Source: an uncultured Bifidobacterium sp.
GTDB lineage: Bacteria > Bacteroidota > Bacteroidia > AKYH767-A > OLB10
NCBI GenBank assembly: GCA_964534995.1
Contig: CAZHSC010000001.1
Coordinates: forward strand, 63,855 to 127,854
Direction: 5' to 3'
DNA length: 64,000 bases
Below, piece after piece: positions 7,749 through 59,600 of this stretch (positions are counted from its first letter, which is position 1; each line of letters begins with the position of its first letter). A program made the translations under genes and the position numbers. A model generated the notes under the pieces. It was not told the origin of the DNA and made no database searches. It was given only the letters and a program-made list of their open reading frames with translations.

Positions 7749-9179
7749 CTATTTCACAACAACTTTGACAGATGAAAACCTGGTACCGTTGCTAATTTCA
7801 AGAAAATAAAAGCCACCTGTAAGTCCTGATACATCCAGCGCATATGTGACAGGGGAATACCGGTCTATATGGTCGGCAAAAACAATTTTTCCGCTTATAT
7901 CCCGAAGTAAAATAGTAACGGCAGCCTTTTGATCCGGTTTAATTTCGGCAAACAGCATTTCATCTGCAGGGTTGGGATAAACGGAAGTGAGTAAACCGCT
8001 TATTTCCGGTTGGCTGATACCTAAAGTAGTACCGGTCTCAAAAGTATATTTTGCGGAATAATAACCTGCAATGGAACCCTGGTAGCTCCTCACTCTCCAG
8101 TAATATCTGGTATTCGGATCTAATGCCGGAATTTGCTGGATGGTGTTGGTTAAACCGCTTTGATTGAAAACCAGGCTGAAGCCGCTGAAGGTGGATGCAG
8201 TGGCCACCTGTAGCTGGTAATTATCGGCATTGGCAATAGGTAACCATTCGAAAACAGGGTTCAGGAGCACATTGCTGGATGAATCGGCCGGTGATACGAG
8301 GGTAACGGCTCCCGTTACCGTTGTAAATTTCCATACTTGTGAATAAACACTCTCATGCCCGCCGTTATTGGATTTCACCCTCCAGAAATAAGTGGCAGAC
8401 CCGGGTAATGTTCCGGCAGTGGTTTGATTGTTGCCTACGGATTTTATATAAACGATGTTCGTAAACAGGGAGTCCAATGCAAATTCAATAGTATATAAAA
8501 CAGCACCATTTACCGCTGTCCAGGTGAAAAGTTGAGAGGTATTAATATTGATGGCATTATCGGCAGGACTCAAAAGGCTCACCGGATTGGGTACGGTATC
8601 ATTTACTCCGGTATACGTAATGAACATGGAAATTTTTTGCAGGGGAACATCATTGGCATCACGCGGTGATAATACAATGGTGTCAACTACCGTCATACCG
8701 TTGGTTACTTTGCCATACACGGTGTAATTGCCGTCCAGGAAGGTAGCCGGTGAAACGCAGATGTAGAATTGCGAGTTGGCACTGTTGATATTTGTGTCAC
8801 GGGCCGCGCCGAGGATTCCACGCAGATGACGAACTGCGCTGAACTCGGCAGGTACGGTGGGCTGCCAGGGTTGGCCTTGCCCCCATGTACTCACCGGACC
8901 ATTTATTGAATTGGGATCTCCCCCCTGTATTACAAAATTGGGAACCACGCGATGGAAGGCGGTACTGTCGTAAAATTGCTGGGAAACAAGACTGTCGAAG
9001 TTACGTACATGTAAGGGGGCGATTAATGGAAAAAGTTCTATGTCGAAAGATCCAAGAAGCGAACTGTCACGGTAGGTGGTGATATGGTATATGGGTTTGT
9101 CAATTCCGCTTTGAGCTGGTAAGCGATGAACCTGTAGCGATAAAACAAAGAGGACAAGAAGGAAGTAAGTTTTTTTCAT
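7749..9179 (-). CDS. cyclophilin-type peptidyl-prolyl isomerase fused to Fn3-like domains and a T9SS type A sorting domain
   Basis: The signal peptide MKKTYFLLVLFVLSLQVHRLPAQ starts at ATG 9179. The cyclophilin core is FHRVVPNFVIQGGDP...NSQFYI. It is followed by repeated F.W..V..A..Y.I modules, and the C-terminus reads VYPNPADEML...GGFYFLEI. Confidence 0.88.
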   Translation of the reverse strand: MKKTYFLLVLFVLSLQVHRLPAQSGIDKPIYHITTYRDSSLLGSFDIELFPLIAPLHVRNFDSLVSQQFYDSTAFHRVVPNFVIQGGDPNSINGPVSTWGQGQPWQPTVPAEFSAVRHLRGILGAARDTNINSANSQFYICVSPATFLDGNYTVYGKVTNGMTVVDTIVLSPRDANDVPLQKISMFITYTGVNDTVPNPVSLLSPADNAININTSQLFTWTAVNGAVLYTIEFALDSLFTNIVYIKSVGNNQTTAGTLPGSATYFWRVKSNNGGHESVYSQVWKFTTVTGAVTLVSPADSSSNVLLNPVFEWLPIANADNYQLQVATASTFSGFSLVFNQSGLTNTIQQIPALDPNTRYYWRVRSYQGSIAGYYSAKYTFETGTTLGISQPEISGLLTSVYPNPADEMLFAEIKPDQKAAVTILLRDISGKIVFADHIDRYSPVTYALDVSGLTGGFYFLEISNGTRFSSVKVVVK

Positions 9180-9337
9180 GTGAGGGTGCGATGTATTCAA
9201 AAGTAATAAATTAAATGGATACTATACAATACCGGACGTCCCGACATGATGAAACAGTTATTATTTGTTTAACGGGTATTAAAGACACCTACGGTGGGTA
9301 TGACATAACCCGGGAGATGCATGGGTAGTATAATTCA

Positions 9338-10375
9338 TCATTTATTATTCATTTTGTTTTTTCTGTAATCGGCCCAGTTCATGCTTTTATAAAAATTGTT
9401 GCCATAATAATCGAGGATTTCGGCAAGTACGGATGGTCCCAGGTAAAATGGTATGGCATCTATCGGTTGCCCTTGCTCATCAAGTATGGCAACGGTAGGT
9501 AAAATGAAGTTCTTTTTTGTTAACTCAAGTGCGAGGGGATGAAATGGAAATTTATCATCCGGGAGTTTTTGATATAATTTATTATTCCAGAACAGGGGCT
9601 TGTTGTTTTCGGGATTAAAATCGATCAGGGTGAATTTCGTGAGAATTTCAGTCAAAGCGCTATCAGTAAAAACTCCGCGTTCCATCACCCGGCAGGAATT
9701 GCACCAGGGGGTATGAAGAAATACAAGTCTCTTCAAACTGTCATTGAAATTACCGTCAAAGACCTGCTCTGGCATCAGCCATTTAAGTTTCTGTATCCTC
9801 CCGCTAATGGTGGTATCGTAAAATGCAGTATTAAAAGTTTGTGTAAAATCTTCGAGTGCGGTACTCCTGAAAACATTTTCGAGGGTATAAACCAGAATGG
9901 GTTCTATTTTTTGTTTATCAAGATATCCGGGTACCAGCATTTTAACCTGAAATTCGTTTTTCACAGGGTCATAGGCATTCAGGAATAAAGTGGTGGGATA
10001 CATCAGTTTCCCTTGCAGTAATTTAACTGCCAGCGGATGTGCTGTTTTCGGGGCTAAGGATGCCGGCATAAAGGTTTCCCCTTCAAAAGTTACGGTGTCC
10101 TTGCCTTCAGCATTAAACTTGACCGGATAAAAATTTTGATTGATATAGTTGGCAAGTGCTTCATCGGCATACGTGGTTGACATCATCCGCTTACACCACC
10201 CGCACCAGTCTGTGTAAAAATCAAGAAGAATAGGTCTGGGTTGTTGTTTGACAGCGTCGTATGCTTCCGGTAAACTCATCCATTTTACACGACTACCGTC
10301 TTTATCCTGGCTAAGGATTTTAACAGGGATAAAGAGACAGGCTAAAATAATTATGGAGATGCGCAGTGATTTCAT
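9338..10375 (-). CDS. secreted protein with two thioredoxin-fold domains
   Basis: The signal peptide MKSLRISIIILACLFIPVKILSQ starts at ATG 10375. There are two CxxC motifs in thioredoxin-like context: DFYTDWCGWCKRM and LHTPWCNSCRVM. Confidence 0.8.
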   Translation of the reverse strand: MKSLRISIIILACLFIPVKILSQDKDGSRVKWMSLPEAYDAVKQQPRPILLDFYTDWCGWCKRMMSTTYADEALANYINQNFYPVKFNAEGKDTVTFEGETFMPASLAPKTAHPLAVKLLQGKLMYPTTLFLNAYDPVKNEFQVKMLVPGYLDKQKIEPILVYTLENVFRSTALEDFTQTFNTAFYDTTISGRIQKLKWLMPEQVFDGNFNDSLKRLVFLHTPWCNSCRVMERGVFTDSALTEILTKFTLIDFNPENNKPLFWNNKLYQKLPDDKFPFHPLALELTKKNFILPTVAILDEQGQPIDAIPFYLGPSVLAEILDYYGNNFYKSMNWADYRKNKMNNK

Positions 10376-10538
10376 CCGTTCATTTGTTTTCCGGACAAAG
10401 ATACAGCACCATCCCGGAAATTCATGCAGCGTACGTGGGCTGGTCCGGTGAAAATATTGCAGGAGTGCCCTCATTAGCGGTATTGAGTCCTTAATGAACC
10501 GGAACGGCACAACTGCAGTATCATTAAATGATATAACT

Positions 10539-10615
10539 ATTTATTATACGCCTTGTACCGTTATAAATTGTGAATTTATTGCAAGGGCGGAGCTGAATGG
10601 CCCCTTTGGATGGAA
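10539..10615 (+). repeat. solitary diverged copy of the 5' part of the 242-bp module found at 12781-13580
   Basis: The layout is ATTTATTATACG, then 32 nt, then AAGGG..hairpin..CCCTT, then TTTGGATGGAAT. Array unit 1 has ATTTATTATACG, then 30 nt, then AAGGGGTGGGGA..TCCCC, then ATTTTTAAGGAAT. This is a hand alignment only. Confidence 0.4.
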
Positions 10616-10948
10616 TCGTAAGCATAAATCCTGAATTTCAAAAGCATGAAATCTGTAGATGGATCCTTATAATTGTTCATTTTCCAATTGACCAATTTGC
10701 ACTATGTAAGTTTAAATGCGCACATCTGAAGGCATTATAGCGACTGGTTGAAAACCGTTTAAGAATCCGGAATTGACAGGATAAATTTGTAAAGCGGATT
10801 TATTATATCTTTATAGCTGGCTTTGTAGTAGTGGAATTACTAATCTCAGGTTTTTTAGAACCTGATAAGTACAGCATGGTACAGGAGCATATAACCTGAT
10901 AGTTTGCAACACGATATATTATTTGTTTAAATAGTAATGACCTGAACT

Positions 10949-12265
10949 GTGAATCGACCTGCCTTCAAAGAAGCCATAAAATTCTGGATTAAGCTGGGCT
11001 TTATAAGTTTTGGAGGTCCTGCTGGTCAAATTGCCATCATGCATGAGTTCCTGGTAGAAAAGAAGAAGTGGATCAGCGACAGTAAATTTCTACACGCTTT
11101 GAATTATTGTATGATACTGCCGGGACCCGAAGCACAGCAATTGGCTACTTATATTGGCTGGATGTTACATGGCATCCGGGGCGGCCTTGCGGCAGGAATT
11201 TTCTTTGTGCTTCCTTCTATGCTTGTACTTTTTGCCCTGAGCGTTTTATACGTTTCATTTGGAAATATTCCCTGGATTTATGCGATGTTCAGCGGGCTTA
11301 AACCCGCTGTCATTGCAATTGTAATACTTGCTCTTGTTAAAATAAGTAAAAAATCTCTGCAAAGTACTTTTCATTTCATCATTGCTATCATTGCTTTTAT
11401 TTGTATTTATTTCCTCGAAATTCCTTTTCCTTTAATTATCGTGGGATCGATAATCACTGCTATTATTGTAAGGAAATATTTTAGTAATATTTTGTCAAAG
11501 GGCCATTCTCATAAATCAGGATGGGGTGATAAAGATGAAAGTATTTATTATATAAACAGATTTACAGTTGTTGAAAATGCGGGATTCAATCTACACAGAT
11601 TTTGGAGGCCAATATCACTTGGGCTTTTACTCTGGACCATACCCATGATAGCCTTTTACTATTTCACAAGTGACTTTGTTTTTTGGAAGGAATTGTCCTT
11701 GTTCTTCACACAAGCGGCATTCGTAACTTTCGGGGGTGCTTATGCGGTCTTACCCTACGTGGCGCAGGTTAGTGTTGAGAAATTTAACTGGTTAACTTCT
11801 GCACAAATGATTGATGGACTGGCTTTGGGTGAAACAACACCGGGCCCGCTGATTATGGTACTGGTATACGTTGGTTTCATGGCAGGATACAATCACTTTG
11901 GGAGTTCTTTGGTAATGGGAACAGTAGGCCTGCTAACAACTACATTTTATACCTTTTTACCTTGTTTCCTCTTTATTTTTACAGGGGCCCCAATCATAGA
12001 AAGGACCCATGATAATGAAAAAATAAAAGAGATGCTGTCCGTTGTAACAGCAGCAGTAGTAGGTGTAATTCTCAATCTTACCCTTTATTTTTCTAAAGCA
12101 GTGATGTTTCCTTCAGTGGTTTCTTTTTCGGGCCTTGATTATGTTTCTTTGAGTTGGACTGTAGTATCATTCATGGCAATGTACCGTTTCAGGATAGGTA
12201 TGATAGCCTGGATTGGCATCAGTGCCCTTTTTGGAATTATTTCTTATTGGATGACACAGGTGTAA
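10949..12265 (+). CDS. chrA: chromate transporter (two CHR domains)
   Basis: 438-aa polytopic protein. The N-terminal half has FISFGGPAGQIAIMH and the C-terminal half has FVTFGGAYAVLPY, which is the duplicated CHR-family signature. It uses a GTG start. Confidence 0.88.
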   Translation: MNRPAFKEAIKFWIKLGFISFGGPAGQIAIMHEFLVEKKKWISDSKFLHALNYCMILPGPEAQQLATYIGWMLHGIRGGLAAGIFFVLPSMLVLFALSVLYVSFGNIPWIYAMFSGLKPAVIAIVILALVKISKKSLQSTFHFIIAIIAFICIYFLEIPFPLIIVGSIITAIIVRKYFSNILSKGHSHKSGWGDKDESIYYINRFTVVENAGFNLHRFWRPISLGLLLWTIPMIAFYYFTSDFVFWKELSLFFTQAAFVTFGGAYAVLPYVAQVSVEKFNWLTSAQMIDGLALGETTPGPLIMVLVYVGFMAGYNHFGSSLVMGTVGLLTTTFYTFLPCFLFIFTGAPIIERTHDNEKIKEMLSVVTAAVVGVILNLTLYFSKAVMFPSVVSFSGLDYVSLSWTVVSFMAMYRFRIGMIAWIGISALFGIISYWMTQV

Positions 12266-12366
12266 GAGATATAAAAGCAGTTTGTTTTTCGTATTCGATT
12301 TGATGTTTTTGCTGCCTTGCGTTATCTCATTTTTGCTGTTATCCCCGGAACGGGAATTTGGCAAGT

Positions 12367-12393
12367 AAACACTTTATAGAGTGTTTGATTTTT
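12367..12393 (+). terminator. weak AU-rich hairpin + T-tract downstream of chrA
   Basis: AAACACT-TTATAG-AGTGTTT is followed by GATTTTTG, about 100 nt after the chrA stop. Confidence 0.35.
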
Positions 12394-12845
12394 GCACTAC
12401 TTAAGTGAAATGATGGAAACTGATAATTTTTATATGTATAAATCAATATGTTAAAATGCAATTAATTTAATCAGCGAAATCAAATGTATGGATGGAGCTT
12501 TTCCATCCTTCTTAACGGCATCCATTCACTTAATAATGTAAAAAAGCAGGTAAAACGCCGGTAAAACGTTTGTTATTTTAATTTGCTGACTTATTATTGT
12601 TGTGAGAACGGAGAGGCAGGTTTATCATATGGAAAGCATCCCGGGGGGCAGAAATCATAGATTGCAGAAGTTCTCAACAACTTCCGTTTATAAGGTAATG
12701 GGTTACATTCCAGTTTAACAGGAATCCAGGGGCGAGAAACGGATAACCCTGCAAGCGTAACAAATGATAGCTAAGCTTGTGTAATTGTATAAAAGCATTT
12801 ATTATACGGTTAAATATTTTCTATGAAGTAATTTTGTGAAGGGGT

Positions 12846-12867
12846 GGGGATAGCCTTCCCCATTTTT
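12846..12867 (+). terminator. hairpin + T-tract inside repeat unit 1 (terminator-like)
   Basis: GGGGA-TAGCCT-TCCCC is followed by ATTTTTAA and immediately preceded by TAATTTTG. Confidence 0.35.
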
Positions 12868-13087
12868 AAGGAATTAGTAGAATTTATAATTGTTTGGAGA
12901 AGCTGCATAAAGTGCCTGCATGCAAATATTTTTTATGCAACTAACGATTATCTGTGTTATTTAATCTGGTTATGGGCTTTCCGGGATATCCCGGAAGGCG
13001 GGTTGGATGAGTCTGGTAATTGGTAAACGTATGTAAGCATTTATTATACGATTGCAAATTTTCTATGATGTAATTTTGAACAGGGGC

Positions 13088-13110
13088 GGGGATAGCATCC
13101 CCCATTTTAT
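13088..13110 (+). terminator. hairpin + T-tract inside repeat unit 2 (terminator-like)
   Basis: GGGGAT-AGC-ATCCCC is followed by CATTTTAT and preceded by TAATTTTG. Confidence 0.35.
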
Positions 13111-13330
13111 AGGAAATAGTAGAATTTATAAATGTTTGGAGAAGCTGCATAAAGTGCATACATGCAAATATTTTTTATGCAACTAACGATTATCTGTGTT
13201 ATTTAATCTGGTTATGGACTCTTCGGAGATATCCCGGAAGGCAGGTTGGATGGGCCTGGTAAATGGTAAACGTATATAAGCATTTAATATACGGTTAATT
13301 ATTTTCTTTGATTTAATTTTGAGCAGGGGC

Positions 13331-13353
13331 GGGGATAGCATCCCCCTTTTTTT
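13331..13353 (+). terminator. hairpin + T7 tract inside repeat unit 3 (best terminator-like copy)
   Basis: GGGGAT-AGC-ATCCCC is followed by CTTTTTTT and preceded by TAATTTTG. Confidence 0.45.
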
Positions 13354-13941
13354 ATGGAATTGGTTGAAGTAATATTTGTGTAGTGAATCTGCATAAAGTG
13401 TATGCATGCAAATATTTTTCATACAACTACTGATTATCCGTGATGTATGATAAGATTGAGGTCTTTCCGGAAAGCAAGTTGACAAATCCCGGTAGATGGT
13501 AAACGTATGTAAGCATTTATAATATGATTATTTTTCAATAATTTGATATCTTTAAAACAGGGGTGGGACCGGAGTTCCCCTGGAAATTCATCCCGATAAG
13601 TTCAGATATATGTAATCGAAAATAGTTGTTTATAAAGCGACTGTTACTTTTTTATAGATTCAAATTATTAAAGGGTGCCGACCTGTTGGGCACCATGAAA
13701 GATAGCACTATTGCATCATGATAAACTCCCAAAATTATAATCATGTTCCCGGTATTCATTGAAGTCATGCCTCTATCGGTTTTATGAAGAGTATATCTTT
13801 TTTCAGTTAATTGGGATTGATATTATTTTGGCTTTCTTTAAAGTAGTAAGGAGCGGATGAGAAACTGTTTTGAGAGTTGCAGCTATTCTGCTATTTCGTC
13901 GGACTGAAGCATTGCATTTATAAGCACAGCTATGGACATAA

Positions 13942-13957
13942 CTTTTATGCAACTAAC
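13942..13957 (+). repeat. isolated copy of the CTTTTATGCAACTAAC core motif of the array
   Basis: TTTTATGCAACTAAC is identical to 12931-12945 and 13173-13187, and the upstream context GCATTTATAAGCAC... is loosely similar to the unit core. Confidence 0.35.
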
Positions 13958-14300
13958 AAGGGCTGATGCATTGCTTTGAAACGGAAAATTTTAAAATAAT
14001 GAATCTTTTCGGCTAAATATACAGGAGGAAACACGAAGGCCCGCCGTAATGACCGACACAACTTTATGGATAACCTGTTACACCTGTTAGGCCGGCATGG
14101 CTGTATCGGTCCCCTTTACCCTCTAAACTACAGGGTACATTAATACGAATCACCGTTCACCCCACTTTCCATATTCGTAAGTCCTGGTTCCGTTCCTTAT
14201 TTCGGGAGTTATTACATTTTTTCTCAGTTGCTTGTTCGCTATTTAAAATTTGAGCGTAAGCTTTTTTATATTGTATAGCAGGGAATTTCACCTGACAACC

Positions 14301-17300
14301 TTATTTACCTTCAGGCACTCTTCCGGGTGTCCAGGGTGCTTTCAGCAGGTCTAACTGATGGTCGATTTCTTTGATTTCAGCGGCGATGGATTTCAGTTCA
14401 TCAATGGCTTCATGAAGCTGTTTTGCCGCGACATCAAATGATTTTTTAAAGGTACCTGTGGGTGCGCAGGTGGTGTTCCACATACCCGACTCAATAGTAC
14501 TCACACGGTCGCTGATAGAAGGAACAGTTTCAAACTCGCGTTTGGAAAGGGAGCCGTCGCCGAAAAGCTTTATACTAATGCTGTTTATCCTGCCCTGTGC
14601 CATTTCAACCCTTTGTATCAGTGTAGTGCTGGCGGCAGGCGTTTCGTTGAGTGCGGGCTTTATATATTTCAGTTTATTGGTCAGTTCATGCTGGAATTCA
14701 CCGGCTATACCGGTTTGCCGGCGGAGTTCGTTTACTTTTTGACAGAAATCATCGTACTCTTTTTTATCGGCAGGTGAAAGAGGATTCAGGTGCAGGGAAC
14801 GGATACGGAAGGATTGCGCAGGTGCCAGTGCTGTGGTGATGCCGTCCTCCACCTTACTTAAGGATACGGTATAAGTTCCCGGCATGGCAAGCGGTCCGGG
14901 GCTGAGCTGGTCCCAGGGATTGTTTGGGTCAGGAGTGTAAAAAGTAACCGGCCGTAAGGAAGCATGGCGCAGGTCCCAGGTAATTCGTTTGAGTCCTTTT
15001 TTTGCATCGGCTTTTATAGTTCGGACAGGCTTGCCGTTAGCATCTGAAATGGTAAAGAGGAGGTAAGGTTCGGGTTGTGTGTCTTCCAAACGCATGCTGT
15101 CGGCGGAAGGATAATAAACAGCTTCTCCTCTTTTTATTTTCTCTTTTTCAGCCTCCTGCCTTTTTGCTTTTAATGTTTTAATATCGTCTTTAAGGTAATA
15201 GGTAAATACCGCTCCGGTTTTTGGATTGGGAGTGGTGAAGAAGCTTTCACCCAGGAACCCTTTTAACGGATGTCCGTGCTGTTGATACTCTATAAATTGA
15301 AGCCCTTCCTTAACAGGGAAGAGGAGCGCCTGCTTTTCCAGGTCTTCTTCTTTCAGGTGGCGGAGGGGCGTATAGTCATCCAGGATATAAAATCCACGGC
15401 CGAAGGTAGCCAACACCAGGTCGTTTTCTCTTTCCTGTATGGCCAGATCTCTTACAGCAATGGTAGGCAATCCCCCTTTGAGCTGGACCCATTTCATACC
15501 TCCGTCAATGCTGAAAAACACTCCGAATTCAGTACCGGTAAACAGCAGGTTTTTGTTTACGGCGTCTTCCGCCACACAATAGGTACTTCCGCGTTGTGGC
15601 AGATTGCCGTTTATTGAGGTCCAGGTGTAACCACCATCGGTGCTCTTGTAAATATAGGGTTTGAAATCTCCATAACGGTGATGATTAAACGTAGCATAGA
15701 ACACGTTTCTTTCATGCCTTGAAGGGATGATTTGATTTACATAACTCCGGTCGGGAACACCGGGAAATTTATCCGTCTTTTTCCAGGTTTTACCGCCATC
15801 GGTAGTAATCTGTATCAATCCGTCATCACTACCCGTAACGAGGTGGTTTTCATCAAAGGGGGATTCGGCAATACTTACCAATTGTCCGTAAAAATCAGTT
15901 GACTGGTTTTTAGCTACCGCGTCCATACTCCATACTTTGCCCATCACAGGCAGTTTGTTACGGTCCATTTGCCGGGATAAATCGCCACTGATACAAGTCC
16001 AGTTTTCTCCCCGGTCATCGCTCCTGAATAACTTGTTGGCGCCGAAGTATAAACGTGTATTGCTGAATTTTGAAATGATAAGGGGGGCGTCCCAGTTCCA
16101 GCGCAGTGCAGGTTCATTTTCGCCTTCTACTGGTTTAATGTCAAGAATTTCCCCGCTTTTTTTATCATAGCGGACCAGGCCTCCGTATTGCCATTGAGAG
16201 TAAACGATGTCGGGATTTTTAGGGTCAACTACGGTTTCAAATCCATCGCCGCCAACCGTAAAGTACCAATCCATATTATGTATGCCATTGGCGCTTTTTG
16301 TCCTTGAGGGTCCGCCCAGCGTATTGTTATCCTGCGTACCTCCGTAAACGTTATAAAAAGGTTCAGCGTTGTCAACAGCAACTTTATAAAATTGTGTTAC
16401 CGGCAGGTTGGGTTTGAATTCCCAGTTGGCCCCATGATCAAAAGTTTCGTACAATCCGCCATCACAGCCACTGAGCATATGCCGGGTATCGGCGGGATTG
16501 ATCCACAGGGCATGATTGTCTACATGTTTGTATCGCTCCCCGATATTTTTAAAGGACTTGCCACCATCTGTAGATACATTGATCCAAAAATCCATGTAGA
16601 AGAGTTTGTTTTGATCTTTTGGATCCGCAAAAATTTCCTGGTAGTAATTTCCTGAAGTGCTTACATCGCTGCGCTTTTCCCAGCTCGCACCGCGGTCGGT
16701 CGAACGGAAGGTCCCGCCTTTTTTATCGCTGGCTTCAATCATGCAATACAACACGTCCGGATTGGCGGGTGATATAGCCATGCCGATCCTTCCCATGTCA
16801 ACATCAGGCAAGCCTTTGTGTATTTTATTCCAGGTAGTCCCTGCATCGTTGCTTTTATAAATTGCCGATTCAGGTCCGCCACTGATATAGGTAAAGACCT
16901 GCCGGCGACGTTGATGGGCAGTAGCATACAGTACCTTGTTGTTACGGGGGTCCATGTGTATTTCATTGAATCCGGTATTTTCACTCACGGTAAGTATAGC
17001 TTTCCAGCTCAGGCCACCATCGGTGGTTTTGTATATGCCCCTGTCGCCTCCGGCACTCCACAGGGGTCCATAGGCGGCCACGTAAACGACATCTGAATTC
17101 TCAGGATCAATCACGATCATCCCGATGTGTTCGGAATTCTTAAGGCCCATATTTTTCCAGGTTTTACCGCCGTCTTCTGATTTGTAAACACCATCGCCAT
17201 AAGCTACGCTGCGCTGGTTGTTATTTTCGCCGGTGCCCACCCAAACGATATTTGTATTCTTGGCATCAATCGTAACACATCCTATGGAATAGGATCCTTC

Positions 17301-17588
17301 CTTGTCGAAAACCGGCTGATAGGTTATTCCGGCGTTGATGGTTTTCCAAACACCTCCGGATGCCGCAGCCACGTAGTATTCATTTATATTATTTGGATTT
17401 ACTTCAATGTCGGCGATGCGGCCGGAAGTAAGTGCGGGACCTATGGACCGGAAGGTGAGTCCATCAAAAGTCTGGGTTTTAAAAGGGCCTTCTTTAACAG
17501 CCGCGGCTGTTTCTGTTTTTTTCTTTTGTGCAAGCGAAGGGGATACAATGGAAGTTGCCAGCAGGAGCAGGGTCAGTAATCGTAACAT
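14301..17588 (-). CDS. BNR/Asp-box repeat protein (sortilin/VPS10-like, GH74-like beta-propeller), secreted
   Basis: 1095 aa with the signal peptide MLRLLTLLLLATSIVSPSLAQ. Many S.DGG.TW Asp-box motifs are present: SEDGGKTW, TTDGGLSW, SNDAGTTW, STDRGASW, STDGGKSF, TTDGGKTW, STDGGYTW, SIDGGMKW. Confidence 0.85.
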   Translation of the reverse strand: MLRLLTLLLLATSIVSPSLAQKKKTETAAAVKEGPFKTQTFDGLTFRSIGPALTSGRIADIEVNPNNINEYYVAAASGGVWKTINAGITYQPVFDKEGSYSIGCVTIDAKNTNIVWVGTGENNNQRSVAYGDGVYKSEDGGKTWKNMGLKNSEHIGMIVIDPENSDVVYVAAYGPLWSAGGDRGIYKTTDGGLSWKAILTVSENTGFNEIHMDPRNNKVLYATAHQRRRQVFTYISGGPESAIYKSNDAGTTWNKIHKGLPDVDMGRIGMAISPANPDVLYCMIEASDKKGGTFRSTDRGASWEKRSDVSTSGNYYQEIFADPKDQNKLFYMDFWINVSTDGGKSFKNIGERYKHVDNHALWINPADTRHMLSGCDGGLYETFDHGANWEFKPNLPVTQFYKVAVDNAEPFYNVYGGTQDNNTLGGPSRTKSANGIHNMDWYFTVGGDGFETVVDPKNPDIVYSQWQYGGLVRYDKKSGEILDIKPVEGENEPALRWNWDAPLIISKFSNTRLYFGANKLFRSDDRGENWTCISGDLSRQMDRNKLPVMGKVWSMDAVAKNQSTDFYGQLVSIAESPFDENHLVTGSDDGLIQITTDGGKTWKKTDKFPGVPDRSYVNQIIPSRHERNVFYATFNHHRYGDFKPYIYKSTDGGYTWTSINGNLPQRGSTYCVAEDAVNKNLLFTGTEFGVFFSIDGGMKWVQLKGGLPTIAVRDLAIQERENDLVLATFGRGFYILDDYTPLRHLKEEDLEKQALLFPVKEGLQFIEYQQHGHPLKGFLGESFFTTPNPKTGAVFTYYLKDDIKTLKAKRQEAEKEKIKRGEAVYYPSADSMRLEDTQPEPYLLFTISDANGKPVRTIKADAKKGLKRITWDLRHASLRPVTFYTPDPNNPWDQLSPGPLAMPGTYTVSLSKVEDGITTALAPAQSFRIRSLHLNPLSPADKKEYDDFCQKVNELRRQTGIAGEFQHELTNKLKYIKPALNETPAASTTLIQRVEMAQGRINSISIKLFGDGSLSKREFETVPSISDRVSTIESGMWNTTCAPTGTFKKSFDVAAKQLHEAIDELKSIAAEIKEIDHQLDLLKAPWTPGRVPEGK

Positions 17589-53604: not shown

Positions 53605-56600
53605 CTATCGCACTAGGGTAACCCTTCCGCTGTATTCCTGTGGTGCAGGTAAGCCATTGAATATTTTAAACAGGTATACATAAGTTCCTTCCGGGCACTC
53701 ATCACCGTTGTTCTGGTACCTGCCATTCCAGCCTTTCTCGAGGCTGTTTGACTGGAATACTAATTTCCCCCACCGGTCATAGATGAAGAAGTCGGCACGT
53801 TCAACACCAATGCCATACCCTGTAAAACTTTCATTGTCGCCGTCACCGTTGGGCGTAAAACCATTGGGCACATAAAATGTGGTTTCCCCCTTCACAATTA
53901 TTTCATTGTAGAAGGTGTCTACGCAGCCTTCGTTGCTGATAGCGATGAGCTCCACTTTATAACGTCCGGTATCTCCGAAGATATGTTCGGGAGACCAGTC
54001 ATATGTATTTGCAGTACCATCCCCGAAATCCCAGTGCGCGCTGATGGCGCCCGTGCTTCCGTTGATAAACTGTACTATCGGATGAAGTATGCTTACCTCC
54101 TGTGGGTCACTGTTGAAGAAGGCGACGGGCAGTGGATAAACGGTAACGACATTATTTTGGGTGAGTGCATTCTCGCATCCGTATTTATCTATAACATGCA
54201 GATATACATCATAGGAACCATCCTGCGTATAGGTGTGCGAAACGCTGCCTCCGGCAGCCTGGCTGTTATCCCCGAAATCCCAGCTGTACACAGATCCGGA
54301 TGTGGTTTGTGTAGTGGACACAAACTGCACGGTGACCGGATTACAGCCTTCGGCTTTGAGAGGCGTAAAGTTTACCAGGGGCAATGGATGTACCACCACA
54401 TACTGTTGGGCCTGGGGTTCTGTAACGGTGCAGGCATCACTCACGCTTACCATGTACAGGAAGCTGCTGTCGGGGGTGCTGGTAAAGGTGTTGCCGGGCA
54501 GGGGATTGGCATTCCAGGTATACGTATATGGTCCGCCGTTACCACCCCCTGCGTATGCGGTAAGTACGGTGCTTTCTCCTTCGCATATACTGTCTTCCGA
54601 TGCGCTAATGCTAAGCGATAAGGCAGGGTAAACCGGAACCGGGATGGTACTGATCACTCTGTCACATCCGTTGGCATCCGTAACCGTAAGTCCGTAATTT
54701 GAAGTAAAGGCCGGGTTTACGGATATGGAAGAGGAAGTGTCACTGGTACTCCACTGGTATGAATAAGAGGGGGTACCGCCGCTCACAGTCGCGCTCAGCT
54801 GAGCCGCCTGACCGATACAAATGGTATCAGGAAACACCACGCTTGCCTGAAGTGCCGTGGGTTGAGTGATGGTGTAAACCGTATCAAAGGTACAGTTGTG
54901 GGCATCGGTAATGGAAACAGAATATATGCCTGTGGGAAGCGAAGAAATACTGTTTGAAACTGAACCGGTGTTCCAGGCATACACATAAGGCGCCACACCG
55001 CCGGAGGTGATCACAGTGATGGCTGCCGTACTCATGCCGAAACAGGGGATAGGATTCACGGTGGATTGTATGCTGATGGCATCAGGCTGCGAAACAAGGA
55101 CGACCCTCGAATGGGTGCAGGCATTGGCATCGCTCACGGTGACGGTATAACTTCCGGCAACCAGGTTGTTAAGGCTGTTATTGGTACCTCCGTTTGACCA
55201 CTGGTAGGAATACGGCGCCACGCCCCCGTAATTACTGACCGAAATTTCTCCGTTGTTGCCGTTAAAGCACAACACATGTGTAACGACAGGAGTATTGAAA
55301 GCAAGAGCGGCAGGCTGTGTGATGGTTACCCCGGAAGAGGTGTTACATCCGTTGTTATCAGTAATGGTAAGCATATAACTTCCCGCACTGAGCCCGTTTA
55401 CCGCCGGTGTGGCAGATCCGTTAGACCAGTTATACTGATAGGGAGCAGTACCTCCTGTTACAGAAAATGCCGCGGCACCGTTGGTCCCTCCAAAGCAACT
55501 GACCATCGTCAGGGCCGCCTGTGTGGACACCAATGCCGGGGGTTCGCTGATGATGGTGCTCTGGAGAGAAGTGCACCCATTTAAATCAGTGATGGATACT
55601 GAATAACTACCTGCCGTAAGCCCGCCAACCTGAGCGCCGGTGGCACCATTTGACCAGGCATAGGTGTAGGGGGCAATCCCCCCGCTCACCACCGCTTCCG
55701 CATTGCCATTATTGCCGCCGTAACAGCTGACCATATTCAGTGCCGTGGCATTTAACACCAGCGGAGATGGCTCCTGAATGGCAAAAGCCCTGGCATCGCT
55801 GCAGCCAAAATTGTCCGTCACGGTAACGGTATAATTACCCGCGGATAGACCGTTGATGCTGTTGCCACTGCTTCCGTTGGACCAGGAGAGTATGTAGGGC
55901 GCTGCTCCGTTGTTGAATTGCACCTGCGCGCTGCCGTTTGCTTCCCCGTAACAATGGGCATCAGTAGTATTTACATTGCTGATGGCCGGTCCGGGAAGGC
56001 CACCAACGATCACCGGTGAAGAGGCGCTGCATCCGTTCCCGTCGCTGACCGTAACCGTATAGGTGCCGGAGTGCAGCCCGCCGGCAAGGCTTCCTGTTGC
56101 ACCCATATTCCACTGATAACTGTAGTTGCCCACACCACCACTCGCCTGCACCTGTGCACTGCCGTTAGCGGCGTTGCATTGCGTGGGGCTGCTGGAAAGC
56201 TGCAGGCTGAGCGCGGCAGGTTCCAGGATGATAATGGATTGTTGTCCCGTGCAGCCGTTTATATCCGTTACTGTTACTGTATAATTTCCGGCGCCGAGCC
56301 CTGCGGCATTCGCATTGCTTCCTCCGGCAGGATTCCATGAGTAGGAGAACGGTCCGTTGCCGCTGTTTACGGCGATACTGGCTGAACCGTCCGCAAATCC
56401 GTAACAACTGGCGGGGGTCACATTATTAACGGCAAGTTGCGGGCCTCCGGCATTGCTTACATTGGCACCCGTGGTGGCAGTGCACCCGTTGGCATCTGTA
56501 ACCACCAGGGAGTAATTCCCCGCCGGCAGTCCGGCGATGGAGGCACTTCCGGTGCTTCCGTTTGACCAGGCATACTGGTAATTACCGGTTCCTCCATTAG

Positions 56601-59600
56601 TGGTAGCGCTTATGCTGCCATTCGAATTTCCGCAGGTGGAAGAAACGGGATTCAGCAAAATGTTCAGAGGGTCGGGCTCACTGATAATAATATTTACGTT
56701 TCCGACGCAGCCATTGATATCGGTTATGACCACGGTATAGTTGCCGGCACTCAAGGCGTTTGCCAGGGTTCCGTTGCCTCCCGTGGGCTGCCATTGGTAG
56801 CTGAAGGGTCCATTGCCGCTGCTAACACTGATTTCCGCGCTTCCGTCATTCCCGCCGGAGCAGCCTGCATTGGTTTGATTTAACACTGTAGCCTGCGGAC
56901 CACCCAGGTTGGAAACATTGGCAACCGCGGTGGCGGTACAGCCGTTTGCGTCGGTAGCGGTAATGGTATAGGATCCTGATGAAAGTCCGTTGAGGGTGGC
57001 TGTTGTCTGACCGCCTGACCACAGGTAAGTCAAAACCCCGGTTCCGCCGTTAGCATTCACCTGCGCGCTGCCGTTAGATCCTCCGCAGGTAGCGTCAGTA
57101 GTTATGGTCTGCAGGTTGATGGCAGGTGCCTGGCTTACGTTCACCATGTCAATGAAGGAGCAACCGTTTAAATCGGTTACGGTGACCGTATAGGTTGCTG
57201 CAGCTACATTATTGATCTGGGCGGTGATTTCCCCGTTGCTCCATAAATAGGTGTAGGGTGCACTTCCGCCGTTTACGCTGACAGCAGCATCGCCGTCAGT
57301 GCCGTTAAAACAACTCGCTGCCGTGCTGCTGCTTTGCAGGGATAAAGAAGAAGGCTGTGTTACCGCGATGGAGGCCGTGGCGGTACACCCGTTGGCATCG
57401 CTTACCGTAACATCGTAATTCCCTGCAGGCACAGCGTTCGCCGTGGCGTTGATGTCCCCGTTTGACCAGGCATACTGATAAGCGCCACTGCCGCCGCTCA
57501 CGGAAACAGTCGCGCTTCCATTGGCATTTCCGCAGGTTGCCTGTACGGAGGAAAGCTGCAGCGTGAGTGCAGAAGGTTCTCCGATATTCACATTCATGCT
57601 GCTGACACAACCGTTCACGTCAGTCACATTGACACTGTATGCGCCGGCGTTCAGGCCTGTGGCCTGGGCGGCATTGCCACCGGCAGGCAACCACTGGTAA
57701 TTGAAGGGGCCGTTTCCGGAACTGATGCTTACCTCCGCTGTGCCATCCGAAGAACCGTTGCAGAGCGCGTCGCTCATGGAAAGAAGCCCGACCACCGGCC
57801 CGCCCATGTCAGCTACAGCGCTTGTTCCGGTTTGCGTACATCCGTTGGCGTCAGTGGCGACCACCGTATAAGCGCCGGCGGACAGGTTGCTGATGGCATT
57901 ACCCGATGCGCCGGTACTCCACTGGTAGCTGAGAATCCCGGTTCCTCCATTTCCATTCACCTGTGCGCTGCCGTTAGCATTGCCGCAGGTGGCGTCCGTA
58001 ACACTCAGCTGCAGGTTAATGGCAGGAGCCTCGCCCACAGCGATGCTTTCCACCTGAGTGCAACCGTTGTTGTCACTGATGGTGACGGTATAGGTTCCTG
58101 AAGCGAGGCTGGCAAGCTGTGAGCCGCTGCTGCCGCCGCTCCAGAGGAAGGTATAAGGAGCGGTACCTCCGTTGGCGATGATGCTGACACTGCCATCCGA
58201 TCCTCCGTAACAGGAGGCATCCACCGGATTCATGGTGCCGTTGAGCGCAGCGGGTTCCCCCACGATGGCGGTGGTAATGGCTGTACATCCTTTGTTATCT
58301 GTTACCGTAACATCGTAGTTTCCGGCCTGCAGGTTAATCCTGTTAGCAGGAAGTATGCCACCCGGATTCCAGTCAAAAGTATAAGGGGCGGTACCTCCCT
58401 GTGCATCAATATCGGCAGTTCCGGTGTTGCCGCCATTGCAGAAGGCGGGAGTGGTAAGGTTGTTCACCACCAGGGGGTCGGGTTCAGTAATGTCAAAATT
58501 TAATGCCGTACTGCAACCGTTGATATCGGTAACGCTCACTTTATAATTTCCCGGAGCCAGGCCGGTAGCTGTAGCCGTAGTGCCGCCATAGGGTAGCCAG
58601 TCAAAGGTAAAGGGCCCGTTGCCTGACACGACAATGACGGCTGCAGTACCATTGGCAAAGCCGTTACAGCTAACATCCGTAACCGGACCTGCTGCAAGCG
58701 CCGGCCCTCCGGCGCTGTTGATGATGGTATTTCCGGAAGCACTGCATCCCCCGGCATCTGTTACCGTGACGGTATAAATGCCGGCGCTGAGTCCGGAGGC
58801 CAGGCCGTTAACGATACCGTTACTCCACAAATAGGAGTAAGGGCTGCTGCCGCCTGCAGGTGTCACCTCCGCCGATCCGTTGGAGTTACCGCAGGTGGCG
58901 ATGGTGGTGCTGAAGGCCAGCTGAATGGCGGGGGGCTCGTTCACCGTAACCTGGAGGTCAGAAGTGCATCCTGAATTATCGGTTACCGTTACGGTGTAAG
59001 TTCCCGCTGCAAGATTGGGGTTAACGGCGGCAGTAGTACCGTTTGACCAGACATAGGAAAACGGAGCTGTGCCGTTCAGCGTGGAAACACCGATGCTGCC
59101 ATCCGCGCCTCCGGAGCAGCTGGCATCCGTCAGTGAAGCGATATTTAAAGAAGGACCGGCCGCATCCGCGATGGAAAGTACAGTCTGAGCGGTGCATCCG
59201 TTGGCGTCAGTCACCGTTACGGTATAACTACCGGCAGGCATAGCCGAAATGGTGGAATTAACCGAGGTGCCTGTCGACCATGAATAAGAATAGCCCGGAA
59301 TACCGCCATTTATGATTACCTCCGCGCTGCCGTCCGGCTGCCCGCAGTGGGCAGTGATGGTGTTACCAACCAGCACGAGTGCGGCCGGTTCATTGATAAC
59401 TGCAGTTACGGTGGAGGTACAGTTATTCGCGTCTGTCACCGTTACCGTATAGTTTCCGGTGCTGAGGTTGCTGCCTGTTGTGCCACTGCCGCCTGAAGAC
59501 CACTGATAATTATAGGGTGCCTGCCCTCCGTTCACAGCGATGGTGAGGTCGCCGTCACTGCCGCCATTACAGCTAACATCCGTTGACAGGAGTACGGCAA

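What the first reader, a model, noticed from the sequence alone, without database searches (positions are those of the whole stretch)
12781..13580. Tandem array of a ~242-bp noncoding module: candidate tandem sRNA or regulatory array of unknown family
Units start at 12781, 13023, 13266 and 13499 with periods of 242, 243 and 233 bp. Each full unit carries, in the same order: GTAAACGTAT-TAAGCATTTATTATACG; a perfect TAATTTTG (the TAnnTTTG shape of the Bacteroidota sigma-A -7 box); a GGGGAT-AGC-ATCCCC hairpin with a T-tract; a TGCATAAA...TTTATGCA inverted repeat around an ATGCAAAT core; TTTTATGCAACTAAC; and a CCGG-rich hairpin region. Two readings are possible. (a) Each unit is a ~160-nt RNA that starts near ATGCAACTAAC, downstream of a TA(tt)TTTT box, and ends at the next unit's hairpin plus T-tract. 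(b) Transcription starts at the TAATTTTG box and reads through the hairpin. The period is not a multiple of 3 and no reading frame is shared between units, so the module is not protein coding. The units are far too long and lack spacers, so it is not a CRISPR. I cannot match it to any RNA family I know (tmRNA, RNase P, SRP, 6S, common riboswitches).
Basis: partly seen in the sequence, partly recalled or inferred. Interest (0 to 1): 0.72.

Follow-up and report, generated by a model that had tools for sequence, protein, structure and literature searches.

The report
Orphan tandem noncoding repeat, possible sRNAs
A 242-bp noncoding DNA module repeated 3.3 times head to tail lies next to a horizontally acquired chromate-transporter gene in an uncultured Bacteroidota genome; each copy carries a promoter-like box and a terminator-like hairpin, so it may be a small array of regulatory RNA genes, but no relative exists anywhere we could search and it could equally be a decaying duplication.

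Summary
The repeat is real. There are three full units (12779-13020, 13021-13263, 13264-13496) and a fourth partial unit (13497-13590), 77-88% identical. It does not code for protein, is not a CRISPR, and matches no Rfam family.

Three new points:
- The array lies in a segment of about 3.8 kb (about 10.5-14.3 kb; chrA plus 2 kb of gene-free DNA). Three related lineages (flanking BNR protein 79-82% identical) lack this segment; in them the two flanking genes are adjacent.
- The unit splits into an 'A' part and a 'B' part. A holds an AT-rich hairpin with the invariant loop AAGCATTTA, a perfect Bacteroidota sigma-A box TAATTTTG, and a GC hairpin with a T tract. A occurs four times in the array and weakly a fifth time at 10531-10615, near the other edge of the segment.
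- Nothing similar turned up in species-representative genomes, JGI metagenomes, viral contigs, plasmids, phages or relatives' loci.

My best reading (0.4) is plus-strand promoter/terminator-punctuated ncRNA genes, an NsiR1-like sibling-sRNA array. Support is modest: the covariation is not significant, the fold energies are ordinary, and the identity pattern between units is mosaic. A neutral, decaying duplication (0.35) is nearly as likely. Interest is low to moderate.

The parts
12779..13020 (+). Unit 1 (A1 + B1)
   Evidence: nhmmer E=2.5e-79
13021..13263 (+). Unit 2 (A2 + B2)
   Evidence: 88% identical to unit 1. By segment: B 5' part 95%, A part 80%.
13264..13496 (+). Unit 3 (A3 + B3), with an 11-bp deletion in the CCGG hairpin
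   Evidence: A part 82-87%, B 5' part about 80%, B 3' part about 60% identical to units 1 and 2.
13497..13590 (+). Partial unit 4 (A4 only). The sigma-A box is degenerate and the GC hairpin is kept through two compensated pairs, but there is no T tract.
   Evidence: nhmmer E=1e-6 and 4e-19 with the A-only model; cmsearch 75 bits; pair table
13023..13055 (+). hpA: AT-rich imperfect hairpin (TAAACGTAT.. / ..ATACG.TTA) with the invariant 9-nt loop AAGCATTTA. Equivalents at 12781-12813, 13266-13298 and 13499-13531.
   Evidence: 83% of cells paired, 1 double change, 5 one-sided changes that all give G.U on the plus strand (a sixth is in the GC hairpin)
13071..13078 (+). Perfect Bacteroidota sigma-A -7 box TAATTTTG (also at 12829-12836 and 13314-13321). 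Predicted TSS at 13083 (12841, 13326).
   Evidence: box position -12..-5 taken from PMC9723704
13088..13108 (+). GC hairpin GGGGAT-AGC-ATCCCC plus T tract, terminator-like. Also at 12846-12867 and 13331-13353. The unit 4 version (13565-13579) lacks the T tract.
13162..13187 (+). B-box ATGCAAATATTTTTTATGCAACTAAC inside a TGCA-rich block. It contains the near-consensus box TATTTTTT (13169-13176; TSS would be about 13181). Equivalents at 12920-12945 and 13406-13431.
13932..13957 (+). Stray copy of the B-box (ATGGACATAACTTTTATGCAACTAAC), 350 bp beyond the array
   Evidence: 85% over 26 nt; 15-mer exact. The box is TAACTTTT and differs from the array copies only at the two 'n' positions.
10531..10615 (+). 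A': weak fifth copy of the A part, from the hpA loop onward, close to the other edge of the non-syntenic segment
   Evidence: nhmmer with the A-only model E=3.5e-4, but cmsearch with structure gives only E=4. Probable but not secure.
10511..14300 (.). Context: non-syntenic segment holding chrA (10949-12265, +) and about 2 kb of gene-free DNA including the array. It lies between the thioredoxin-like gene and the BNR/sortilin gene, which are adjacent in relatives.
   Evidence: The boundaries are approximate: the native trx promoter is at 10403.

Best explanation
The array is a short series of paralogous noncoding RNA genes on the plus strand. It was carried into, or grew within, a horizontally acquired chrA islet.

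**Anatomy of a repeat (shown).** Each repeat supplies:
- a sigma-A-type promoter box;
- a GC hairpin with a U tract;
- a hairpin (hpA) that presents the invariant loop AAGCAUUUA, followed by an AU-rich linker.

**Mechanism (inferred).**
- I favour RNAs of about 170 nt. They would start at the TAnnTTT(T/C) box in the B part (TSS about 12939, 13181, 13425), run through the variable CCGG region, hpA and the linker, and end at the next unit's hairpin/U tract.
- Transcription from the perfect TAATTTTG box (TSS about 12841, 13083, 13326) would add either very short products or read-through RNAs of about 265 nt.
- The RNAs would act in trans as sibling sRNAs, base-pairing through the conserved single-stranded stretches: the 5' CAACUAACGAUUAUC, the hpA loop and the linker.
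- The array grew by unequal crossing-over between A parts.

**Status.** The repeat, its anatomy, its strand asymmetry and its genomic context are shown. Transcription, RNA ends and targets are inferred.
For: 1. Three in-register plus-strand hairpin/T-tract sites are the only terminator-like sites in the 2.1-kb scan.
2. A perfect TAnnTTTG box is invariant in u1-u3. In this window 8 of the 10 perfect boxes in non-coding DNA outside the array lie correctly upstream of genes.
3. The stray B-box at 13932 keeps TA..TTTT plus ATGCAACTAAC exactly, and differs only at the two unconstrained box positions.
4. hpA and the GC hairpin are kept in all 4 copies. 86% of cells are paired against 37-56% when the partners are slid. 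There are 3 double changes, and all 6 one-sided changes that keep a pair do so as G.U on the plus strand, none as A.C.
5. The hpA loop AAGCATTTA is invariant in all four A copies.
6. There is no shared ORF and no protein-family signal.
7. The copies have diverged 12-23% without collapsing, in a phylum where intergenic sRNAs with a TSS plus an intrinsic terminator are the validated class (PMC7366714).
8. [quoted passage not shown]
Against: 1. No homologue was found in any collection, so there is no independent evidence of conservation.
2. Covariation is not significant: 37/500 and 73/500 shuffles reach the observed score, and RNAalifold covariation terms are positive.
3. Fold energies are ordinary.
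4. The G.U excess is partly expected from plus-strand G+T richness (G 183 vs C 102, T 287 vs A 240). With that bias allowed for, I estimate p at about 0.09.
5. Identity along the unit is mosaic and not concordant between comparisons. For u1-u2 the A part is 80% and the B part 90-95%. For u3 the A part is 82-87% and the B 3' part 60%. Spearman is -0.53. This points to duplication or conversion history, not uniform purifying selection.
6. The perfect box puts the TSS 5 nt before the unit's own terminator-like hairpin, and the alternative box is imperfect.
7. Unit 4 lacks both a good box and a T tract, and unit 3 has lost the strongest hairpin of the TGCA block.
8. No complementary target was found in the 64-kb window.
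Confidence: 0.4

Rival explanations
1. The array is a neutral relic. An intergenic stretch that happened to contain a terminator and a promoter-like box was duplicated in tandem by slippage or unequal crossing-over, inside a recently acquired and decaying chrA islet. The copies are drifting apart and have no function of their own.
For: - The array sits in a lineage-specific segment of about 3.8 kb that three related lineages lack. That segment has lower G+C than its flanks and holds about 2 kb without any gene or protein-family signal.
- It is an orphan in every collection searched.
- Decay runs from left to right: u3 has an 11-bp deletion and lost pairings, and u4 lacks the box and the T tract.
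- Identity is mosaic, which fits duplication or conversion history.
- No significant covariation and no fold-energy signal.
Against: - Bacterial genomes delete useless DNA, and tandem repeats collapse easily, yet 3.3 copies survived 12-23% divergence.
- Hairpins hpA and the GC stem stay paired in all copies, including two compensated pairs in u4.
- The hpA loop and the TAATTTTG box are invariant.
- A 15-mer of the B-box is kept exactly in a stray copy whose flanks have diverged beyond recognition.
Confidence: 0.35
2. The A parts work at the DNA level. They could be recombination or attachment-type sites (an imperfect palindrome around a 9-bp invariant centre) that bounded a mobile chrA cassette, with the array formed by repeated recombination at A. 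Alternatively, the TGCA-rich palindromes could be operator sites for a regulator.
For: - A-like sequence lies near both ends of the non-syntenic segment in direct orientation: A' at 10531-10615 and A4 at 13497-13590.
- The similarity of A' to A begins at the hpA loop and lacks the left arm, as a hybrid site would.
- The centre AAGCATTTA is invariant in A1-A4 while the arms vary.
- A 10-nt direct repeat GGAAATTCAT lies at 10416 and again abutting the last hairpin at 13582.
- chrA relatives occur in varied contexts, one of them next to an integrase.
- TGCATA-N14-TATGCA brackets the TATTTTTT box, and both halves change together in u3.
Against: - There is no recombinase, transposase or integrase in the segment, and no recognisable remnant of one.
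- A' is only about 60% identical and fails the structure-aware search (E=4).
- The 10-mer repeat is expected by chance about 0.2 times.
- No terminal inverted repeats were found.
- hpA does not fit the integron attC core motifs (RYYYAAC/GTTRRRY) or the 11+6+11 dif layout. This was judged by inspection against consensus sequences from my own knowledge.
- A 242-bp period is far larger than known iteron, parS or operator arrays.
Confidence: 0.12
3. Each unit encodes a micro-peptide (MQIFFMQLTIICVI in u1 and u2) and forms a tandem type I toxin-antitoxin-like or leader-peptide module.
For: A 14-15-codon ORF starts at the conserved ATGCAAAT in u1, u2 and u3 and in the stray copy at 13932. Type I toxin-antitoxin loci are often tandemly duplicated (my own knowledge: E. 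coli LDR and SIB/QUAD repeats). Candidate type I systems have been reported in Bacteroides (PMC7366714).
Against: - 14 residues is too short to span a membrane; the shortest known type I toxins have about 18-19 residues.
- The changes between u1 and u3 are almost all non-synonymous, and the 15-nt core is conserved at the nucleotide level, not at the codon level.
- There is no perfect TAnnTTTG box on the minus strand of the units for an antisense RNA.
- The upstream context is not typical of Bacteroidota start sites.
Confidence: 0.04

Closest known systems
NsiR1 tandem sRNA array of Nostoc sp. PCC 7120 (12 direct repeats upstream of hetF; PMC9045159, PMC4030482)
   Same: Head-to-tail noncoding repeats in an intergenic region. 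Each copy has its own promoter motif. Sequence divergence is concentrated in particular copies: the peripheral ones in NsiR1, the right-hand ones here. Both fit the concept of sibling sRNAs with partly redundant targets.
   Different: NsiR1 is about 60 nt, experimentally mapped and conserved across heterocystous cyanobacteria, and its promoter motif (DIF1) and targets are known. Here the unit is 242 bp with only 3.3 copies. There are no transcript data, no homologues and no target, and the promoter box lies awkwardly against the hairpin.
Canonical intergenic sRNAs of Bacteroides (e.g. GibS; PMC7366714)
   Same: Same phylum-level expression signals: a sigma-A TAnnTTTG -7 box, an intrinsic terminator, and a candidate single-stranded 5' seed.
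   Different: GibS is single-copy, conserved across Bacteroides species, validated by Northern blot, and has mapped targets. There is no sequence or Rfam similarity to it here.
Tandem type I toxin-antitoxin repeats of E. coli (LDR ldrA-C; SIB/QUAD ibs-sib). Recalled from my own knowledge, not checked in a paper here.
   Same: Repeats of a few hundred bp in intergenic DNA, each a self-contained expression module that includes a tiny hydrophobic ORF.
   Different: Those repeats encode peptides of 18-35 residues plus an overlapping antisense RNA with its own promoter. Here the ORF has 14 codons, is not conserved at the protein level, and no perfect sigma-A box lies on the opposite strand for an antisense RNA.
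Bacterial intergenic minisatellites / VNTR-type tandem duplications (my own knowledge)
   Same: Tandem copies produced by slippage or unequal crossing-over, mosaic identity between copies, and presence or absence that is specific to a lineage.
   Different: Typical units are 10-100 bp and nearly identical. These units are 242 bp, 12-23% diverged, and each carries expression-signal-like motifs.

Membership tests
Tandem sibling-sRNA gene array (NsiR1 type) | Each repeat carries its own promoter | tested here: inconclusive
   A perfect TAATTTTG box is present in u1-u3, and such boxes are predictive in this window. However, the predicted TSS lies 5 nt before the unit's own hairpin/T tract, and the alternative box is TAnnTTT(T/C). 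This rests on sequence only.
Tandem sibling-sRNA gene array (NsiR1 type) | Each repeat carries its own intrinsic terminator on the same strand | tested here: met
   Three in-register plus-strand hairpin/T-tract sites. The fourth hairpin has no T tract.
Tandem sibling-sRNA gene array (NsiR1 type) | Discrete small transcripts with defined 5' and 3' ends | not testable with these tools
   No expression data are available for this uncultured genome.
Tandem sibling-sRNA gene array (NsiR1 type) | Conserved secondary structure supported by covariation, and conservation in related genomes | tested here: inconclusive
   Only the paralogous copies can be compared. 86-90% of cells are paired and there are 3 double changes, but 37/500 and 73/500 shuffles do as well. 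RNAalifold covariation terms are positive. No homologues were found.
Any Rfam family (tmRNA, RNase P, SRP, 6S, riboswitches, ribozymes, known sRNAs) | Covariance-model score at or above the family's gathering threshold | tested here: not met
   0 hits at gathering threshold in the whole window. The best permissive hits have E of 0.6 or worse and lie far below threshold. No tRNA or tmRNA.
CRISPR array | Short (about 23-50 bp) near-identical repeats separated by unique spacers, usually with cas genes nearby | tested here: not met
   The units are 233-244 bp, contiguous without spacers, and 77-88% identical. No cas-like domains are found among the flanking genes scanned.
Protein-coding repeat | An open reading frame kept in register across units | tested here: not met
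   The ORFs differ in frame and length between units. There are no Pfam hits.
Type I toxin-antitoxin tandem repeats (LDR / SIB type) | A hydrophobic peptide of about 18 residues or more under purifying selection, plus an overlapping antisense RNA with its own promoter | tested here: not met
   The ORF has only 14-15 codons and its changes are mostly non-synonymous. No TAnnTTTG box lies on the minus strand of the units.
Type III toxin-antitoxin antitoxin repeats (ToxI type) | Repeats of about 34-45 nt immediately upstream of a toxin endoribonuclease gene | tested here: not met
   The unit is 242 bp. The neighbours are chrA and a BNR/sortilin-domain protein.
Site-specific recombination sites (integron attC, Xer/dif-type modules) | Consensus core motifs or arm-spacer geometry, and a cognate recombinase or cassette context | tested here: inconclusive
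   No recombinase lies in or next to the segment. By inspection, hpA does not fit RYYYAAC/GTTRRRY or the 11+6+11 geometry. A' at the other edge (E=3.5e-4) and the 10-nt flanking repeat are weak hints only.

The most novel reading that the evidence does not exclude
The A module, a hairpin with an invariant 9-nt centre followed by a GC hairpin, may be the boundary or recombination site of a recombinase-less mobile cassette that delivered chrA into this Bacteroidota chromosome. In that case the A-B array records repeated recombination at that site. This would be a cassette system comparable in logic to integron attC or Xer/dif modules, but unrelated in sequence.
Probability: 0.07. Interest if true: 0.65.

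Novelty: new member of a known kind. Interest (0 to 1): 0.3.

Why it matters
If the units are transcribed, this would be a new and apparently lineage-restricted family of multi-copy regulatory RNAs in Bacteroidota. Few trans-acting sRNAs are characterised in that phylum, and I know of no tandem sibling-sRNA array there. It would also have been acquired together with a metal-resistance gene, which would make it a case of regulatory RNA travelling with cargo. If it is a neutral relic, it is still a clean example of how acquired islets accrete and decay. In either case the practical value is limited until a relative or expression data exist.

Tried and rejected
**Motif scans of public collections**
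- GTAAACGTATNTAAGCATTTA in GTDB species-representative genomes: 0 hits.
- A degenerate version that matches all four A copies, in JGI metagenomes: 2 hits, both the start of murA (MQAFRIRGG), so chance. In IMG/VR: 0 hits.
- ATANNTTTTATGCAACTAAC in genomes: 27 hits, about the chance expectation. On inspection most lie in what read as coding sequences (K/N-FYATN motifs). None resembles the unit beyond the seed.

**Similarity searches**
- blastn (distant mode) of the whole 2-kb gene-free region against plasmids and phages: nothing relevant.
- nhmmer, blastn and a covariance model of the A part against relatives' syntenic loci and chrA-homologue loci (L123-L135): nothing.

**Pseudogene hypothesis for the gene-free DNA**
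- tblastn with the neighbours of chrA homologues, and Pfam on stop-to-stop ORFs: nothing.

**The trx-like gene as an antisense target of A**
- The RNAduplex signal arises because A' lies upstream of that gene.
- Rejected because the real trx promoter (10403) and start codon (about 10375) lie downstream of A', so A' is not in the mRNA.

**A covarying 'hpB' hairpin (TGCATA/TATGCA in u2 against TGTATG/CATACA in u3)**
- It shows two double changes.
- Downgraded because the TGCA-rich block has several mutually exclusive pairings, and the minimum-energy folds of u1/u2 and of u3 use other arms.

**Non-uniform conservation along the unit as evidence of selection** (permutation, 26/5000)
- Withdrawn because the u1-u2 and u3 comparisons are discordant, which indicates a mosaic duplication or conversion history.

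**Extension of the array into more degenerate units to the right (13.6-14.0 kb)**
- Not supported by nhmmer or self-blastn, apart from the 26-nt B-box.

**Look-up of the window's own proteins to extend the contig**
- Not on record.
Full report
**1. The observation**

The sequence at 12.78-13.59 kb is a genuine head-to-tail repeat. The repeat finder gives 204-nt copies at 12781, 13023 and 13267, with further families in register. An HMM built from the three full units scores them at E=1e-70 to 1e-80 and finds a fourth, partial copy at 13499-13581 (E=1e-6). Self-blastn shows it is the only long-period noncoding tandem repeat in the 64-kb window. Tandem Repeats Finder missed it.

Pairwise identities are 88% (u1-u2) and 77-78% (u3 against either). 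The periods are 242, 243-244 and 233 bp, and u3 has an 11-bp deletion in the CCGG palindrome.

- The TGCATAAA/TTTATGCA inverted repeat is broken in u3.
- The CCGG hairpin has a different shape in each unit.
- Unit 4 has neither a good TAnnTTTG box nor a T tract.
- TTTTATGCAACTAAC occurs once more, exactly, outside the array at 13943.

**2. What it is not**

- No ORF is shared in register by the units on either strand, and stop-to-stop translations hit no Pfam family.
- There is no tRNA or tmRNA.
- There is no Rfam match at gathering threshold in the window. A permissive scan of 12.2-14.35 kb gives nothing better than E=0.6, far below threshold.
- The geometry excludes a CRISPR array and ToxI-type antitoxin repeats.

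**3.

The flanking genes are a chromate transporter, chrA (10949-12265, +), and a 1095-aa BNR/sortilin-domain protein (14301-17588, -).

The closest relatives of the BNR protein are 79-82% identical. They lie on contigs in which BNR is followed directly, after 90-245 bp, by a thioredoxin-like gene and a PPIase with a T9SS sorting domain. In the window those two genes are 9338-10510(-) and 7749-9200(-). The coding regions align at about 70% nucleotide identity, but nothing between about 10.5 and 14.3 kb has a counterpart.

So chrA plus about 2 kb of gene-free DNA, including the array, forms a lineage-specific segment with lower G+C than its flanks. It is most simply an insertion.

The nearest chrA homologues are only 74% identical and occur in many Bacteroidota in unrelated contexts, one of them next to an integrase. 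None of those loci carries anything like the unit.

**4. Search for relatives**

Every search came back empty or with chance hits only:
- Exact-pattern scans with the best-conserved motifs found nothing in 185,579 species-representative genomes. They found only two chance hits at the murA start codon in JGI metagenomes and nothing in IMG/VR.
- A looser B-box pattern gave 27 genome hits, about the chance expectation. On inspection most lie in what read as coding sequence, and none resembles the unit beyond the seed.
- Distant blastn against plasmids and phages found nothing relevant.
- A covariance model of the A part, run on all held loci, found nothing.

The element is therefore an orphan. 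Only its own 3.3 copies can be compared.

**5. Anatomy**

The array begins and ends with the same 85-95 bp, so it reads A-B-A-B-A-B-A.

Part A contains three elements:
- **hpA**, an 11-12-bp AT-rich imperfect hairpin whose 9-nt loop AAGCATTTA is invariant in all four copies.
- **An AU-rich linker** of about 30 nt that contains TAATTTTG.
- **A 6-bp GC hairpin**, followed in u1-u3 by a T tract.

An A-only HMM also hits 10531-10615 (E=3.5e-4), about 100 bp inside the other edge of the non-syntenic segment. The match starts at the hpA loop. The structure-aware search does not confirm it (E=4), so I treat it as probable, not secure.

Part B contains a TGCA-rich block with the B-box ATGCAAATATTTTTTATGCAACTAAC, followed by a poorly conserved CCGG-palindrome region.

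**6. Expression signals**

TAnnTTTG is the sigma-A -7 box of Bacteroidota and occupies -12 to -5 (PMC9723704; PMC7366714). In this window 13 perfect boxes lie outside coding sequence once the trx start is corrected. Eight of the ten outside the array sit just upstream of a gene in the right orientation. The box is therefore informative here, and the three array boxes are invariant.

However, they predict TSSs at 12841, 13083 and 13326, which is 5 nt before the unit's own hairpin/T tract. A second, imperfect box (TATTTTTT/TATTTTTC at 12927, 13169 and 13413) would give TSSs at about 12939, 13181 and 13425, and RNAs of about 170 nt ending at the next unit's hairpin. The stray B-box copy at 13932 keeps this box and the following ATGCAACTAAC, and differs only at the two unconstrained box positions. 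That is what I would expect of a promoter plus initial transcribed sequence.

The terminator-like sites are specific to the plus strand. No perfect TAnnTTTG box lies on the minus strand of the units; only a 7/8 match, TACGTTTA, recurs there in units 2-4.

**7. Tests for a structured RNA**

- Folds of the three candidate RNAs of about 180 nt give z = -2.4, +1.2 and +0.6 against shuffles, and the predicted structures differ from one another.
- RNAalifold on either transcript phase gives a positive covariation term.
- Only hpA and the GC hairpin are consistently kept. On the four A copies 86% of cells are paired (37-56% when the partners are slid), with three double changes. Even so, 37 of 500 column shuffles do as well.
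- All six one-sided changes that keep a pair do so as G.U on the plus strand, and none would be G.U on the minus strand. That fits a plus-strand RNA. The plus strand is also G- and T-rich, and allowing for that I estimate p at about 0.09.
- A further hairpin in the TGCA block shows two double changes between u2 and u3. The block has several exclusive pairings and the minimum-energy folds use other arms, so I do not count it.

**8. Is the conservation pattern selection?**

Invariant columns are clustered (26/5000 permutations), but the two independent comparisons disagree.
- u1 and u2 differ most in the A part (80%) and hardly at all in the B part (90-95%).
- u3 is close in A (82-87%) and far in the 3' part of B (60%).
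- Spearman is -0.53.

This is the signature of a mosaic duplication or gene-conversion history, so I withdraw the clustering as evidence of purifying selection.

**9. Explanations**

- **Best (0.4): a small plus-strand array of sibling ncRNA genes.** Each would be punctuated by a sigma-A-type box and a hairpin/U tract, most likely giving RNAs of about 170 nt that present the hpA loop and AU-rich linker. The array would have grown by unequal crossing-over between A parts. In logic it is closest to the NsiR1 array (60-nt sRNA, 12 tandem copies with individual promoters, peripheral copies divergent; PMC9045159) and to canonical Bacteroides intergenic sRNAs (PMC7366714). Membership in such a class rests on transcripts that I cannot test.
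- **Nearly as likely (0.35): a neutral, decaying tandem duplication inside an acquired islet.**
- **Less likely (0.12): a DNA-level role for A as a recombination or boundary site, or of the TGCA palindromes as operators.** The hints are A' at the other edge, the invariant centre, and a 10-nt direct repeat at 10416 and 13582 (chance expectation about 0.2). There is no recombinase or remnant of one.
- **Least likely (0.04): a 14-codon hydrophobic micro-ORF in each B part.** It is too short, and its changes are mostly non-synonymous.

**10. Verdict**

It remains unproven that RNAs are made. The array is young, lineage-restricted and embedded in a horizontally acquired chrA segment. If real, it is a new family of a known kind, tandem sibling sRNAs. 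Interest is low to moderate until expression data or a relative become available.

Noticed in passing
window 10511-14300: chrA plus about 2 kb of gene-free DNA is absent from three related lineages, in which the BNR gene and the thioredoxin-like gene are adjacent. G+C is lower than in the flanks. This looks like a small horizontally acquired chromate-resistance islet without any mobility gene.
   Followed up: yes
window 13665-13737 (minus strand): An orphan perfect sigma-A box TAATTTTG at 13737->13730 is followed on the minus strand by the hairpin GGTGCC...GGCACC (13697-13675) and CTTTAATAATTT. This could be a minus-strand RNA of about 60 nt, or a bidirectional terminator.
   Followed up: partly
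window 12481-12512: A second orphan box, TACATTTG, lies on the minus strand at 12488. It sits immediately behind the chrA terminator-like hairpin GGATGGA-GCTTT-TCCATCC and would drive an RNA antisense to the chrA 3' end.
   Followed up: no
window 10375-10510: The mechanical ORF 9338-10510 over-calls the thioredoxin-like gene. The real promoter box TATCTTTG is at 10403 (minus strand), and the likely start is the ATG near 10375 (MKSLRISIIIL..., a signal peptide). This matches the 332-368-aa length of the relatives.
   Followed up: partly
window 10416-10425 and 13582-13591: A 10-nt direct repeat GGAAATTCAT. The second copy abuts the last GC hairpin of the array. Together the two copies would bracket A', chrA and the array as a 3.17-kb insert. 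About 0.2 such matches are expected by chance, so this is only a hint.
   Followed up: partly
window 12538-12682: An 11-nt mini-repeat GTAAAA(A/C)GC(A/C)G, 2.5 copies, at 12538-12568. A long-range stem GTTGTGAGAAC/GTTCTCAACAAC spans about 12600-12682. The fold is not better than shuffles (z=+1.1).
   Followed up: partly
window 53605-63804 (minus strand): A 3399-aa ORF with internal repeats of about 900 bp (65-71% identical at the DNA level). It was not examined further.
   Followed up: no
L133 4001-8315: A chrA homologue (73% identical) in an ENA metagenome scaffold lies downstream of a tyrosine integrase and an Fe-SOD. It is followed by about 1 kb of gene-free DNA with its own unrelated 79-bp direct repeat (7765 and 8213, 87% identical). 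So chrA travels in varied, partly mobile contexts.
   Followed up: partly
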